The position numbers were made by a program, and so were the translations under genes. A DNA stretch of 64,000 bases from Hemiscyllium ocellatum (taxonomy: Eukaryota), in assembly GCF_020745735.1 (NCBI RefSeq), contig NC_083424.1, forward strand, positions 49,524,999 through 49,588,998. The letters are read 5' to 3'. Position 1 is the stretch's first letter. Each line of letters starts with the position of its first letter. Below are positions 22,853 to 26,463 of this stretch, in pieces. The notes beneath the pieces were generated by a model. That model ran no database searches. It was not told where the DNA came from and saw nothing but the letters and a program-made list of their open reading frames with translations.

Positions 22853-23578
22853 GTAGTTACTCCGAAAGTTCAAGATAGATGGGTGACAGTGAGGGGGAGT
22901 GGGAGGAGGAAGCCAGTGCAGGGACCCCCTGCGGTCATTCCCCTCAAGAACAAGTATACCGTTTTGGATACTTGTGGGGGGGATGACTTACCAGGGGCAA
23001 GCAACGAGGTTCAGGCCTCTGGCACGGAGCCTGGCCCCGTTGCTCAGAAGGGTAGGGTGGAGAAAGGTAGAGCAATTGTTCTTGGGGACTCGATAGTGAG
23101 GGGTACAGACAGACGGTTTTGTGGGGGCGACAGGGACTCACGTTTGGTATGTTGCCTCCCAGGTGCAAGGGTACGTGATGTCGCTGATCGTGTTTTCCGG
23201 GTCCTTAAGGGGGAGGGGGAGCAGCCCCAGATCGTGGTCCACGTTGGCACCAACGATATAGGTAGGAAGAAGGGTGAGGATGTCAGACAGGCTTTCAGGG
23301 AGCTAGGTTGGAAGCTCCGAGTTAGAACAAACAGAGTTGTAGTCTCTGGTTTGTTACCCGTGCCACGTGATAGAGAGTCGAGGAATAGGGAGAGAGAGCA
23401 GTTAAATGCGTGGCTACAGGGATGGTGCAGGAGGGAGGGATTCCGGTTTCTGGACAACTGGGGTCCTTTCTGGGGAAGGTGGGACCTCTATAAAAAGGAT
23501 GGGCTACACCTGAACCTGAGGGGCACCAGTATCCTTGCGGGGAGGTTTGCTAGTGCTCTTTGGGAGGGTTTAAACTAA
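22853..23578 (+). CDS. CR1 ORF1p, C-terminal SGNH/GDSL esterase domain (5'-truncated)
   Basis: Blocks VLGDSIVRG, CLPGARV, HVGTNDI and DGLHLN; ends GLN*. The start codon in the ORF track lies in flanking DNA. Confidence 0.92.
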   Translation, partial: VVTPKVQDRWVTVRGSGRRKPVQGPPAVIPLKNKYTVLDTCGGDDLPGASNEVQASGTEPGPVAQKGRVEKGRAIVLGDSIVRGTDRRFCGGDRDSRLVCCLPGARVRDVADRVFRVLKGEGEQPQIVVHVGTNDIGRKKGEDVRQAFRELGWKLRVRTNRVVVSGLLPVPRDRESRNREREQLNAWLQGWCRREGFRFLDNWGPFWGRWDLYKKDGLHLNLRGTSILAGRFASALWEGLN

Positions 23579-26463
23579 CTCCGCGGGGGCATGGGAACCA
23601 GGACTGTAGCTTTAGGGTACAGGACCTTGAGTGTAGGGAGGTTAGGAATAATGCAGCGATCTCTAAGGAGGGTGCCTGTAACCAGAAAGGTGGATTGAAG
23701 TGTGTATACTTCAGTGCCAGAAGTATAAGGAATAAGGTAGGTGAACTTGCAGCGTGGGTTGGTACCTGGGACTTCGATGTTGTGGCCATTACAGAGACGT
23801 GGGTAGAACAGGGACAAGAATGGCTGTTGCACGTTCCAGGGTTCAAATGTTTTAGTAGGATCAGACATGGGGGTAAAAAAGGGGGAGGCGTGGCATTACT
23901 TGTCAAAGACAGTATCACAGCAGTGGAATGGACGATGGAAGAGGACTTGCCATCTGAGGTAGTTTGGGCTGAGGTTAGAAATAGGAAAGGTGAGGTCACC
24001 CTGTTAGGTGTTTTCTACAGGCCTCCTAATAGTCCTAGAGAAGTAGAGAATAATATTGCGAGGATGATTCAGGAAAAGAGTGAAGGTAGCAGGGTGGTTG
24101 TTATGGGGGACTTTAACTTCCCAGATATTGACTGGGAGAGCTATAGCTCGAGTTCATTGGATGGGTCGGTGTTTGTACAATGTGTGCAGGAGGGTTTCCT
24201 GACACAATATGTCGACAGGCCAACAAGAGGGGAGGCTATATTGGATTTGGTTCTAGGTAATGAACCAGGCCAGGTGTTAGACTTGGAGGTAGGTGAGCAC
24301 TTCGGGGACAGTGACCACAACTCGGTGACTTTTACTTTAGTGATGGAGAGGGATAATCGTGCGCCGCAGGGCAAGAGCTATAGCTGGGGGCAGGGAAATT
24401 ATGATGCAGTGAGGCATGACTTAGGATGTGTGGATTGGAAAAACAGGCTTCAAGAGAAGAACACTAATGAGATGTGGGGATTGTTCAAGGAGCAGCTACT
24501 GCGTGTCCTCGATAGGTATGTACCAGTCAGGCATGGTGTAAAGGGCCTTGTGAGGCAGCCGTGGTTTAGTAAGGAATTGGAGTCCCTTGTGAAAGGGAAG
24601 AAGGCGGCATATGTAAAGATGAGGCGTGAAGGTTCAGTTGGGGCGATTGAGAGTTATAAGGTAGCCAGGAAGGAGCTAAAGAGGGAGCTAAGAGAAGCGA
24701 GAAGGGGACATGAAAAGTCTTTAGCTGGTAGGATTAGGGAAAACCCAAAGGCTTTCTATAGGTATGTCAAGAATAAAAGGATGACTAGGGTAGGTATCGG
24801 TCCAGTCAAGGATAGTAGTGGGAAGTTGTGTGTGGAGGCGGAGGAGATTGGAGAGACATTAAATCAGTACTTTTCATCAGTATTCACTCAGGAACAGGAC
24901 ACTGTTGCTGATGTGAATATGGAATCACAAATAATTAGAATGGATGCCCTGGAAATATGCAGGGAGGAGGTTTTGGGAATATTGGAAAGGATGAATATAG
25001 ATAAGTCTCCTGGGTCTGATGGCATTTACCCCAGGATCCTATGGGAAGCTAGGGAGGAGATAGCAGAGCCATTGGCCTGGATTTTTATGTCGTCATTGTC
25101 TACGGGAATAGTACCAGAGGACTGGAGGATAGCGAATGTGGTCCCATTGTTCAAGAAAGGGAGTAGGGATAGCCCTAGTAACTATAGGCCAGTGAGTCTG
25201 ACTTCAGTGGTGGGCAAAGTCTTAGAGAGAATGGTAAGGGATAAGATTTATGAACATCTGGGTAGGAATAACGTGATCAGGGATAGCCAGCATGGTTTTG
25301 TGAAGGGCAGGTCGTGCCTCACAAACCTTATTGAGTTCTTTGAGAAGGTGACTAAGGAAGTGGATGAGGGTAAAGCAGTAGATGTTGTGTATATGGATTT
25401 TAGTAAGGCGTTCGATAAGGTTCCCCATGGTAGGCTAATGCTAAAACTTCGGAGGTATGGCATTGAGGATACATTAGAGGTTTGGATTAGGAATTGGCTG
25501 GCTGGAAGGAGACAGAGGGTAGTAGTTGATGGATTATGTTCATCTTGGAGCGCAGTTACTAGCGGTGTACCACAAGGATCTGTTTTGGGACCATTGCTTT
25601 TTGTTATCTTTATAAATGATCTAGAGCAAGGACTTGAAAGCTGGGTAAGCAAGTTTGCGGATGACACAAAAGTCGGTGGAGTTGTGGATAGTGAGGAAGG
25701 AAGTGGTAGGTTACAGCGGGATATAGATAAGTTGCAGAGCTGGGCGGAAATGTGGCAAATGGAATTCAATGTAGCTAAGTGCGAAGTCGTTCACTTTGGT
25801 AGGAATAACAAGATGATGGATTACTGGGCTAATGGTAGGCTACTTGGTAGTGTGGATGAGCAGAGGGATCTTGGTGTCTATGTACACAGATCTCTGAAAG
25901 TTGCCACCCAGGTAAATAGTGCTGTGAGGAAGGCATATGGTGTACTGGGCTTTATTGGCAGAGGAATTGAGTTCCGGAGTCCTGAGGTCATGTTGCAGTT
26001 GTATAAGACTCTGGTGAGGCCTCATCTGGAGTATTGTGTGCAGTTTTGGTCGCCATACTATAGGAAGGATGTGGAAGCTTTAGAACGAGTGCAGAGGAGG
26101 TTTACCAGGATGTTGCCTGGAATGGTAGGAAAATCTTATGAGGAAAGGCTGAGGCACTTGGGGCTGTTCTCATTGGAGAAGAGAAGGTTTAGGGGAGATC
26201 TGATAGAAGTGTATAAGATGATTAGGGGTTTAGATAGGGTAGATACTAAGAACCTTTTACCGCTAATGGAGTCAGGTGTTACTAGGGGACATAGCTTTAA
26301 ATTAAGGGGTGGTAGGTATAGGACAGATGTTAGGGGTAGATTCTTCACACAGCGGGTTGTGAGTTCATGGAATGCCCTGCCCGTATCAGTGGTGAACTCT
26401 CCTTCCTTATGGTCATTTAAGCGGGCATTGGATAGGCATTTGGAAGTTATTGGGCTAGTATAG
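23560..26463 (+). CDS. CR1 ORF2p: AP-type endonuclease + reverse transcriptase
   Basis: Open 967-codon frame with ITETW, YRPP, MGDFN and SDH endonuclease motifs and QGSVLGP, FADD RT motifs; first in-frame ATG only at 23935. Confidence 0.97.
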   Translation: MGGFKLTPRGHGNQDCSFRVQDLECREVRNNAAISKEGACNQKGGLKCVYFSARSIRNKVGELAAWVGTWDFDVVAITETWVEQGQEWLLHVPGFKCFSRIRHGGKKGGGVALLVKDSITAVEWTMEEDLPSEVVWAEVRNRKGEVTLLGVFYRPPNSPREVENNIARMIQEKSEGSRVVVMGDFNFPDIDWESYSSSSLDGSVFVQCVQEGFLTQYVDRPTRGEAILDLVLGNEPGQVLDLEVGEHFGDSDHNSVTFTLVMERDNRAPQGKSYSWGQGNYDAVRHDLGCVDWKNRLQEKNTNEMWGLFKEQLLRVLDRYVPVRHGVKGLVRQPWFSKELESLVKGKKAAYVKMRREGSVGAIESYKVARKELKRELREARRGHEKSLAGRIRENPKAFYRYVKNKRMTRVGIGPVKDSSGKLCVEAEEIGETLNQYFSSVFTQEQDTVADVNMESQIIRMDALEICREEVLGILERMNIDKSPGSDGIYPRILWEAREEIAEPLAWIFMSSLSTGIVPEDWRIANVVPLFKKGSRDSPSNYRPVSLTSVVGKVLERMVRDKIYEHLGRNNVIRDSQHGFVKGRSCLTNLIEFFEKVTKEVDEGKAVDVVYMDFSKAFDKVPHGRLMLKLRRYGIEDTLEVWIRNWLAGRRQRVVVDGLCSSWSAVTSGVPQGSVLGPLLFVIFINDLEQGLESWVSKFADDTKVGGVVDSEEGSGRLQRDIDKLQSWAEMWQMEFNVAKCEVVHFGRNNKMMDYWANGRLLGSVDEQRDLGVYVHRSLKVATQVNSAVRKAYGVLGFIGRGIEFRSPEVMLQLYKTLVRPHLEYCVQFWSPYYRKDVEALERVQRRFTRMLPGMVGKSYEERLRHLGLFSLEKRRFRGDLIEVYKMIRGLDRVDTKNLLPLMESGVTRGHSFKLRGGRYRTDVRGRFFTQRVVSSWNALPVSVVNSPSLWSFKRALDRHLEVIGLV

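What the first reader, a model, noticed from the sequence alone, without database searches (positions are those of the whole stretch)
23560..23625. Candidate programmed -1 ribosomal frameshift linking CR1 ORF1 to ORF2
Seen: ORF1 ends GGT TTA AAC TAA. The heptamer T_TTA_AAC (23569-23575) is phased exactly as X_XXY_YYZ in the ORF1 frame, and ORF2 is open in the -1 frame across it (TTT AAA CTA ACT...). ORF2 has no in-frame ATG until 23935 (codon 126), inside the endonuclease domain after motif I and ITETW. The same TTTAAAC-TAA, followed by a G-rich GGGGG..GGAACC tract, is retained in the older, diverged CR1 on the - strand (35681-35672), with a decayed version near 27168. Established: U_UUA_AAC is the coronavirus slippery site; some plant viruses have a stop right after the heptamer; studied LINEs are generally thought to use termination-reinitiation for ORF2. 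Inference: these CR1s may make an ORF1-ORF2 fusion (transframe ...WEGLN-LTPRGHGNQ..., adding 962 aa), like retroviral Gag-Pol. I do not know of this being demonstrated, but cannot check the literature.
Basis: partly seen in the sequence, partly recalled or inferred. Interest (0 to 1): 0.85.

Follow-up and report, generated by a model that had tools for sequence, protein, structure and literature searches.

The report
Ribosomal frameshift signal in CR1 retrotransposons
A very common jumping gene of vertebrates (the CR1 LINE) keeps a coronavirus-type 'slippery' sequence, followed by a run of Gs, at the end of its first gene in sharks and in distant relatives, and its second gene often has no start codon, so the copying enzyme is likely made when ribosomes slip back one base, as retroviruses do.

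Summary
Observation confirmed. T_TTA_AAC (23569-23575) ends ORF1. ORF2 is open in the -1 frame; its first ATG (23935) lies behind endonuclease motif I and ITETW. All 30 young copies fetched share this junction. Four CR1 families in this shark-like genome keep the heptamer; one has moved its stop a codon further on and still keeps it. Across 8 lineages at 22-60% protein identity the Leu-Asn codons are TTA 8/8 and AAC 8/8, whereas all 21 other conserved columns vary in codon. Of 140 ORF1 homologues, 90 end Leu-Asn, 9 Gln-Gly-Asn and 2 Ser-Lys-Asn, the peptides that other slippery heptamers would give (DNA not seen). New here: a run of five or six Gs begins 8-11 nt after the heptamer in 18 of 18 junctions (background 1.1%), with no conserved fold. 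Best reading: programmed -1 frameshifting makes an ORF1-ORF2 fusion (0.85); not shown experimentally. Against: 5 of 18 junctions have an AUG beside the stop, and the canonical stimulatory structure is missing. A -1 shift is already reported for Dictyostelium TRE LINEs. Ten literature searches found nothing for CR1, but key older papers were unavailable. This scan found the same signal before in another genome (e1-8041403).

The parts
22859..26544 (+). Young CR1 LINE copy (family A), 5'-truncated inside ORF1
   Evidence: 5' boundary against full-length copy L012; 3' terminal TTCTATG repeats; 40 of 40 scored genomic matches at 99-100% over the junction region, 1108 candidates
22859..23578 (+). 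Remaining 3' part of ORF1 (SGNH esterase domain), ending Gly-Leu-Asn-stop; full ORF1 is 308 aa with an N-terminal Cys-rich motif
   Evidence: Pfam PF13472 E 5.5e-14; PDB 4c1b esterase E 4e-26; full ORF in L012
23569..23575 (+). Slippery heptamer T_TTA_AAC in ORF1 phase
   Evidence: Sequence; codon-level conservation; census
23576..23578 (+). ORF1 stop codon TAA directly after the heptamer
   Evidence: stop at this place in 17 of 18 junctions, one codon later in family C
23585..23589 (+). Conserved G run (positions +10 to +14 after the heptamer); candidate frameshift stimulator
   Evidence: G at +11, +12, +13, +14 in 18, 18, 17, 18 of 18 junctions; background for such a run 73 of 6364
23575..26463 (+). 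ORF2 in the -1 frame: about 44-codon linker, APE endonuclease, reverse transcriptase; 962 codons after the predicted shift
   Evidence: (PF03372, PF00078)
23707..23724 (+). Endonuclease motif I (here YFSARS; YFNARS in 29 of 30 young copies), upstream of the first ATG
23935..23937 (+). First in-frame ATG of ORF2, inside the endonuclease domain
   Evidence: (same codon in 30 of 30 young copies)
26525..26544 (+). 3' terminal short tandem repeat (TTCTATG units)
   Evidence: Sequence
35675..35681 (-). Heptamer of an older CR1 copy (family B, about 32892-36224), followed by TAA and a G run
27161..27168 (-). Decayed heptamer (TTTAAAAC) of a third, highly decayed CR1 ORF1 end
   Evidence: profile hit 27348-27139, E 1.7e-10

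Best explanation
The ORF1/ORF2 junction of esterase-type CR1 LINEs carries a conserved slippery heptamer and G run that likely act as a programmed -1 ribosomal frameshift signal. Shown: ORF1 ends in U_UUA_AAC; ORF2 continues in the -1 frame; in family A and several other lineages there is no AUG before the endonuclease's first conserved motif; the heptamer and a G run about 10 nt downstream are conserved as nucleotides. Inferred: most ribosomes stop at the ORF1 stop and release the esterase protein. A minority slip back one base with tRNA-Leu and tRNA-Asn on the heptamer and go on through a free linker into endonuclease and reverse transcriptase. This gives a Gag-Pol-like ORF1-ORF2 fusion of about 1270 aa (308 + 962) at a fixed low ratio. 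Inferred, with less support: the pause comes not from a local hairpin or pseudoknot but from the unpaired G run near the mRNA entry channel, helped by the neighbouring stop codon. My odds for the G run's role: bound by a trans-acting protein as in arterivirus frameshifting 0.4; paired with a distant partner I could not see 0.25; direct contact with the ribosome 0.2; G-quadruplex 0.15.
For: (1) Not a one-copy accident: 30 of 30 young copies have the same junction and the same late first Met. (2) Own-genome census anchored upstream of the heptamer: TTTAAAC in 28 of 28 distinct family A sequences, 13 of 17 B, 26 of 28 C and 8 of 8 D (17 loci could not be anchored). (3) Family C has TTC TGA after the heptamer, so the heptamer is kept independently of the stop position, and the G run keeps its distance to the heptamer, not to the stop. 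(4) Metagenome loci found with patterns from the esterase core: 16 of 20 close homologues with enough downstream DNA have TTTAAAC, 14 in phase; the 4 others are G_TTAAAC, two near variants and one unrelated end. (5) In 8 lineages of 22-60% identity, TTA 8/8 and AAC 8/8, while 21 of 21 other conserved columns vary in codon. Codon usage of the same ORFs gives 0.012 per lineage for the heptamer by chance. (6) Proteins: 90 of 140 end Leu-Asn; the residue before is one whose codon cannot end in U in only 1 of 90, against 35 and 30 of 90 at the next two positions; 9 of 9 Gly-Asn ends are Gln-Gly-Asn, and 2 end Ser-Lys-Asn, as G_GGA_AAC and A_AAA_AAC would give. All three heptamers are listed among the most shift-prone in PMC5009743. 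(7) In the 9 junctions where the script located motif I, it lies in the -1 frame 99-264 nt after the heptamer start, with no stop in that frame and 1-10 stops in each other frame. Intact distant elements L223, L225 and L228 show the same, with the first Met after motif I. (8) The -1 frame is closed 1-5 codons upstream of the heptamer in 12 of 25 junctions, with no conserved start codon there.
Against: No experiment, ribosome profile or peptide was available. The canonical 3' stimulatory structure was not found: folding z-scores of the 100 nt downstream range from -2.8 to +1.7 in 20 junctions, only one below -2, and no partner for the G run lies at a shared position (most loci lack the element's 3' end). 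An in-frame AUG lies within 2 nt of the stop in 5 of 18 junctions (L089, L091, L093, L095; L111 as an overlapping UAAUG), and at codon 17 in most family C copies. The G_GGA_AAC and A_AAA_AAC variants are inferred from protein only; scans for their DNA found none. The representatives were located by the TTAAAC letters, so their counts lean favourable; the anchored censuses are the unbiased figures. More distant esterase homologues lack the heptamer (1 of 23; many are probably not LINEs), and 35 of 140 proteins do not end in Asn.
Confidence: 0.85

Rival explanations
1. ORF2 is made as a separate protein by termination-reinitiation just after the ORF1 stop (L1-, SART1- or calicivirus-like, tolerant of non-AUG codons); the conserved letters position the terminating ribosome.
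For: AUG within 2 nt of the stop in 5 of 18 junctions, one as UAAUG. Reinitiation is the proposed route for L1 and SART1 and tolerates non-AUG starts in caliciviruses (PMC5972666; PMC3542737). The stop directly follows the heptamer in 17 of 18 junctions.
Against: 13 of 18 junctions have no such AUG, and the codon at that place varies freely. AUG-bearing lineages still keep the heptamer. Family C moved the stop but kept heptamer and G-run spacing. UGGGA lies 40-90 nt upstream in only 5 of 25 junctions. It does not explain why alternative ends are Gln-Gly-Asn and Ser-Lys-Asn.
Confidence: 0.07
2. ORF2 is made from a spliced or internally initiated RNA; TTTAAA or the CTAAC/AG letters are a promoter or splice signal.
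For: TTTAAA is TATA-like, the family A junction contains CTAAC, and TAG-stop lineages have an AG there.
Against: TAA and TGA lineages have no AG at that place. No AG between heptamer and motif I in family A has more than 8 pyrimidines in the 15 nt before it. A shorter RNA would still lack an in-frame AUG before motif I in families A and D, L081, L223 and L228. Neither route needs the junction-to-motif-I distance locked to the -1 frame. None of the 15 best of 36 joints in four relatives' contig sets is GT..AG, and one contig runs through the junction without gaps (weak, RNA status guessed).
Confidence: 0.03
3. The conservation is at protein level (a Leu-Asn C terminus needed by the esterase, or Phe-Lys-Leu/Gly needed in ORF2), and ORF2 starts at a near-cognate codon before motif I.
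For: Leu-Asn is invariant in a 32-protein alignment that I chose from full-length ends. TTG codons lie at 23560 and 23695 in family A.
Against: The codons, not just the residues, are fixed, against 21 variable control columns. The Leu before motif I is TTG, CTC, CTA, CTG, CTT or ATT in different lineages, and the upstream TTG is not conserved. The G run spans codons for Arg, Gln, Trp, Lys, Ser or Leu followed by Gly, always GGG in 17 of 18.
Confidence: 0.03
4. RNA polymerase slippage (one extra base in the RNA) joins the frames.
For: A homopolymer G run is conserved.
Against: The G run lies after the ORF1 stop in every lineage, so an insertion there cannot join ORF1 to ORF2. The heptamer has runs of only three. 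It matches the tRNA re-pairing pattern, not a polymerase slip run.
Confidence: 0.02

Closest known systems
Dictyostelium TRE5-A and TRE3-A non-LTR retrotransposons
   Same: APE-type LINEs for which a review states that ORF2 needs a -1 frameshift (PMC5911963, passage seen).
   Different: A different LINE lineage in amoebae, with an unrelated ORF1. I did not see their shift site or the primary evidence. No link to CR1 in the passages read.
Coronavirus ORF1a/1b and retroviral gag-pol -1 frameshifting
   Same: Identical heptamer to infectious bronchitis virus (U_UUA_AAC; PMC5009743); polymerase made as a C-terminal fusion at a low ratio; non-shifting ribosomes stop soon after (Rous sarcoma virus passage).
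   Different: These use a pseudoknot or stem-loop 5-9 nt downstream (PMC3542737); none is conserved here.
Arterivirus (PRRSV) protein-stimulated frameshifting
   Same: A short linear motif (CCCANCUCC) 11 nt after the shift site acts as stimulator by binding nsp1-beta and poly(C)-binding protein (PMC5009743); the CR1 G run is fixed at +11 to +14.
   Different: C-rich rather than G-rich; mainly a -2 shift; a binding protein is shown there and is only hypothesised here.
Zebrafish ZfL2-1 (esterase-ORF1 LINE), human L1 and silkworm SART1
   Same: Bicistronic LINE RNA in which ORF2 translation depends on ORF1; the ZfL2-1 ORF1 esterase is the closest solved structure (4c1b).
   Different: L1 and SART1 are described as termination-reinitiation. 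From recall only (Kajikawa 2012, not held), ZfL2-1 ORF2 was proposed to be made by stop-codon readthrough, which would also give a fusion but in frame.

Membership tests
Programmed -1 ribosomal frameshift (tandem slippage) | Heptamer X_XXY_YYZ in the upstream ORF's phase | tested here: met
   T_TTA_AAC at 23569-23575; in phase in 28/28 A, 26/28 C, 14/20 metagenome homologues
Programmed -1 ribosomal frameshift (tandem slippage) | Downstream ORF open in the -1 frame from the heptamer and dependent on it for its N-terminal part | tested here: met
   No stop in the -1 frame up to motif I in 9 of 9 junctions where the motif was located; first Met after motif I in family A, L223, L225, L228; an AUG is available in some lineages
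Programmed -1 ribosomal frameshift (tandem slippage) | Nucleotide-level conservation of the heptamer beyond protein need | tested here: met
   TTA 8/8, AAC 8/8 against 21 variable control columns; residue-before test 1/90 against 35/90 and 30/90
Programmed -1 ribosomal frameshift (tandem slippage) | Stimulatory RNA structure 5-9 nt downstream (canonical type) | tested here: not met
   No shared fold, z from -2.8 to +1.7 in 20 junctions; no shared long-range partner (3' ends mostly missing). It is therefore not filed as the canonical structure-stimulated type; a conserved linear G run is present instead
Programmed -1 ribosomal frameshift (tandem slippage) | Transframe protein made, dependent on the heptamer | not testable with these tools
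   Needs a reporter, ribosome profiling or mass spectrometry
Canonical CR1 LINE with esterase ORF1 | ORF2 with APE endonuclease and reverse transcriptase | tested here: met
   Pfam PF03372 and PF00078; L1 endonuclease structures
Canonical CR1 LINE with esterase ORF1 | ORF1 with SGNH esterase | tested here: met
   PF13472, 4c1b; PMC13343379 passages say vertebrate canonical CR1s encode or cluster with esterase ORF1 and that chondrichthyan L2s lack ORF1
Canonical CR1 LINE with esterase ORF1 | 3' end of short tandem repeats rather than poly(A) | tested here: met
   TTCTATG repeats at 26525-26544; bird CR1 octomer TTCTGTGA seen in the abstract listing of PMC2612034
Canonical CR1 LINE with esterase ORF1 | Reverse transcriptase groups with reference CR1s in a tree | not tested
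   No curated LINE reference set on hand; ORF2 is 35-42% identical to bird-type loci
Termination-reinitiation (calicivirus TURBS / SART1 / L1) | Start codon at or near the upstream stop | tested here: not met
   Absent in families A, B, D and in 13 of 18 junctions; present in 5 of 18
Termination-reinitiation (calicivirus TURBS / SART1 / L1) | Conserved UGGGA 40-90 nt upstream of the stop | tested here: not met
   5 of 25 junctions; in family A at -96 and -15

The most novel reading that the evidence does not exclude
The dominant retrotransposon of most vertebrates, and its relatives in other animals, makes its reverse transcriptase as a Gag-Pol-like fusion through an ancient, structure-free -1 frameshift cassette: a slippery heptamer (U_UUA_AAC, swapped for G_GGA_AAC or A_AAA_AAC in some lineages) plus a linear G5-6 motif at +11 that is read by a host or element-encoded RNA-binding protein. 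This would be a natural protein-stimulated frameshift in a nuclear retroelement, giving the host a switch on CR1 mobility.
Probability: 0.35. Interest if true: 0.92.

Novelty: new variant of a known kind. Interest (0 to 1): 0.78.

Why it matters
How LINE ORF2 is translated is described as an open question (PMC3894237), and the worked examples in animals use reinitiation. CR1-group elements are the dominant retrotransposons of most vertebrate species (abstract of PMC13343379). A conserved -1 frameshift would mean that CR1 ORF2 protein carries the coiled-coil/esterase ORF1 protein at its N terminus, which offers a simple route to tether the enzyme to its own particle and fixes the ORF1:ORF2 ratio. 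It would also change how intact CR1 copies are annotated, since ORF finders that need an AUG cut off half the endonuclease. It supplies a short, directly testable cassette with an apparently non-canonical stimulator.

Tried and rejected
Local stimulatory hairpin or pseudoknot: no shared fold in 20 junctions (the method does not model pseudoknots). Long-range partner for the G run: the best duplexes fall at scattered places; a C-rich stretch 635-720 nt upstream appears in several lineages but coincides with a proline-rich part of ORF1 and is not consistent. G-quadruplex: no three-tier motif in 18 junctions, a two-tier pattern in 9 of 18. DNA for the Gln-Gly-Asn and Lys-Asn lineages: scans of viral contigs and genome contigs found none, and three alignments were too diverse for the genome-contig scan. 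Searching the own genome with Gly-Asn-type, ray-type and sturgeon-type ORF1s returned only families A, C and D. A 200-kb sample of the genome gave only two decayed junctions. Naturally fused ORF1-ORF2 proteins: one longer hit and three shorter ones look like single-copy indels or gene-model artefacts and were not used as evidence. RNA: only relatives' contigs with 7-13% shared words, RNA status guessed; they cannot show strand, level or absence of splicing. Within old family B the heptamer departs from the commonest letter in 2.4% of cells against 8.9% elsewhere (8 of 407 windows as low), but A/T sites decay more slowly and these copies were chosen by similarity to this stretch, so I give it little weight. 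No complex or structure prediction was run, as neither bears on the claim.
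Full report
Observation. The window holds a young CR1-type LINE at about 22859-26544. ORF1 (SGNH esterase; Pfam PF13472; closest solved structure 4c1b) ends GGT TTA AAC TAA. ORF2 (APE endonuclease and reverse transcriptase) is open in the -1 frame from 23554 to 26463. 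The first in-frame ATG is at 23935, behind motif I (23707) and ITETW (23788); the latter aligns with the 'IQET' stretch of L1 endonuclease structures. The second site (35681) and the decayed third site (27168-27161, minus strand) are real CR1 junctions. The heptamer by itself is common (15 times in the window), so only comparison can make it meaningful. This copy lacks the first 69 ORF1 codons and has Ser in place of the motif-I Asn found in 29 of 30 young copies, so the signal is a family trait. The host is a cartilaginous fish by the names of the nearest homologues; I did not determine the species.

Own genome. The 40 best-scored of 1108 candidates are 99-100% identical over the junction region. 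All 30 fetched have the same junction and the first ORF2 Met 122 codons after the heptamer's TTT. Three more families were sampled. With an anchor upstream of the heptamer, TTTAAAC is present in 28 of 28 distinct family A sequences, 13 of 17 B, 26 of 28 C and 8 of 8 D; 17 loci could not be anchored, and identical sequences were collapsed. The misses are single-base changes in old copies. Family C is informative: its ORF1 runs one codon further (TTC TGA), yet heptamer and G run keep their places.

Other organisms, proteins. Of 226 homologues, 140 have the esterase's last motif within 60 residues of the C terminus. Of these 90 end Leu-Asn, 9 Gly-Asn, 2 Lys-Asn, 2 Ser-Asn, 1 Ile-Asn and 1 Glu-Asn; 35 end otherwise. 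In 43 single-linkage clusters at 60% identity the commonest end is Leu-Asn in 14, Gly-Asn in 5 and Lys-Asn in 1. Named Leu-Asn members come from sharks and rays, a gull relative, turtles, lizards and (flagged as possible contamination) sturgeon. The residue before Leu-Asn has a codon that cannot end in U in 1 of 90 cases, against 35 and 30 of 90 one and two places further back (sequences are related, so the p-value there overstates). All 9 Gly-Asn ends are Gln-Gly-Asn, both Lys-Asn ends are Ser-Lys-Asn, and five more proteins have Lys-Asn at the same depth followed by a short tail. These are the peptides that G_GGA_AAC and A_AAA_AAC would encode; that step is inference, because no DNA for them was found. 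[quoted passage not shown]

Other organisms, DNA. A metagenome scan with esterase-core patterns gave 80 loci. Fifty had a hit to the ORF1 end with the heptamer excluded from the query; 26 were close (E <= 1e-8), 20 of them with enough downstream DNA. Sixteen of the 20 have TTTAAAC, 14 in phase; 1 of 23 distant ones does. Among 14 junctions with a long open ORF1, forming 8 lineages of 22-60% identity, the Leu and Asn codons are TTA 8/8 and AAC 8/8, while each of the 21 other conserved columns uses two to five codons. Codon usage in the same ORFs gives 0.012 for the heptamer per lineage. These representatives were located by the TTAAAC letters, so the censuses are the fair counts. In the 9 of 25 junctions where my pattern found motif I, it lies 99-264 nt downstream, always in the -1 frame, with no stop in that frame and stops in both others. 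The other 16 had a variant motif, an indel or too little DNA. A genome-contig scan added animal LINE DNA contained in bacterial assemblies: 9 of the 10 loci with a LINE-type ORF1 end located have TTTAAAC in phase, the tenth TTTAAAG; in the intact L223, L225 and L228 the first Met follows motif I.

The downstream element. A run of five or six Gs begins 8-11 nt after the heptamer in 18 of 18 junctions examined (7 near-duplicates or decayed ones were dropped from 25), against 73 of 6364 control positions; positions +11 to +14 are G in 18, 18, 17 and 18. The run spans codons for different residues, so it is a nucleotide feature. No shared local structure was found, no shared distant partner (limited by missing 3' ends), and a two-tier quadruplex pattern in only 9 of 18. 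The closest described arrangement is the arterivirus C-rich motif 11 nt after the shift site, which binds proteins (PMC5009743); that the G run works likewise is my hypothesis.

Results against. An in-frame AUG lies within 2 nt of the stop in 5 of 18 junctions (four bird-type by resemblance to P0074; one overlapping UAAUG in L111), and family C has a Met at codon 17 in most copies; reinitiation could operate there, alone or alongside. The canonical stimulatory structure is absent. Some esterase LINEs do it differently: L152 and L153 have ORF2 in frame behind a TGA, with no heptamer. There is no expression evidence: the RNA runs are relatives' contigs of guessed type.

Mechanism. Shown: anatomy, phase and conservation. 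Inferred from established -1 frameshifting (PMC3542737, passages): tandem slippage on UUA AAC yields ORF1p plus a minor ORF1-ORF2 fusion of about 1270 aa. I put this at 0.85, reinitiation at 0.07, splicing or an internal promoter at 0.03, protein-level constraint with a near-cognate start at 0.03, and polymerase slippage at 0.02.

Prior knowledge. Ten full-text searches found no report of frameshifting in CR1; none of the 30 papers listed held the heptamer term. Term look-ups found no 'frameshift' in PMC13343379 (2026 CR1 survey), PMC8665684, PMC3894237 or PMC3905857, and no 'CR1' in the held first 300,000 characters of PMC5009743. I saw passages only, not whole texts or supplements, for these and for PMC11835228, PMC1965478, PMC4255032, PMC5911963, PMC5006619, PMC3542737, PMC5135761 and PMC5972666. 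PMC5911963 states that Dictyostelium TRE5-A and TRE3-A need a -1 frameshift for ORF2, so frameshifting in a LINE is not new as a category. Kapitonov and Jurka 2003, Kajikawa 2012 and Kojima 2005 were not held; Haas 1997, Kajikawa 1997 and Repbase reports were not seen; the ZfL2-1 readthrough proposal is recalled. An earlier remark in these sources cannot be excluded. An earlier agent of this scan reported the same signal in another genome (e1-8041403); that note gave me the TRE lead, and it is not independent evidence.

Verdict. A real, deeply conserved recoding signal. Most likely a programmed -1 frameshift with a non-canonical G-run stimulator: a new variant of a known kind, directly testable. 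Interest 0.78.

Noticed in passing
window 60382-62013 (+): A second, 5'-truncated copy of the same young CR1 family, 99.4% identical, with an open RT frame.
   Followed up: partly
window 3847-4925, 6446-9294, 13555-14970, 29795-31065, 44439-45508: Further older CR1 fragments; the one at 6446 begins just inside the ORF2 linker and lacks the junction.
   Followed up: no
L152 2001-2450, L153, L138: Esterase-ORF1 LINEs without the heptamer: the endonuclease lies in the same frame as ORF1 behind a single TGA, with a Met three codons later; a candidate for readthrough or reinitiation.
   Followed up: partly
L089, L091, L093, L095, L111 junctions: AUG within 2 nt of the ORF1 stop (L111: overlapping UAAUG) together with an intact heptamer; dual expression routes are possible.
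   Followed up: partly
L223-L235; protein P0006: Animal CR1-type LINE DNA lies in several bacterial genome assemblies, and one shark-like ORF1 is labelled Pseudomonas aeruginosa: host contamination of public records.
   Followed up: no
window 22931-22940 and equivalent places 635-720 nt upstream of the heptamer in several lineages: C-rich stretch in a proline-rich part of ORF1 that could pair with the G run; not consistent across lineages.
   Followed up: partly
proteins P0029, P0064, P0065, P0079, P0263: Public gene models of rays and frog that have absorbed CR1 ORF1 sequence under host gene names.
   Followed up: no
window 23713-23715: This copy has Ser for the motif-I Asn of the endonuclease (29 of 30 young copies keep Asn), so it is probably endonuclease-defective.
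   Followed up: yes
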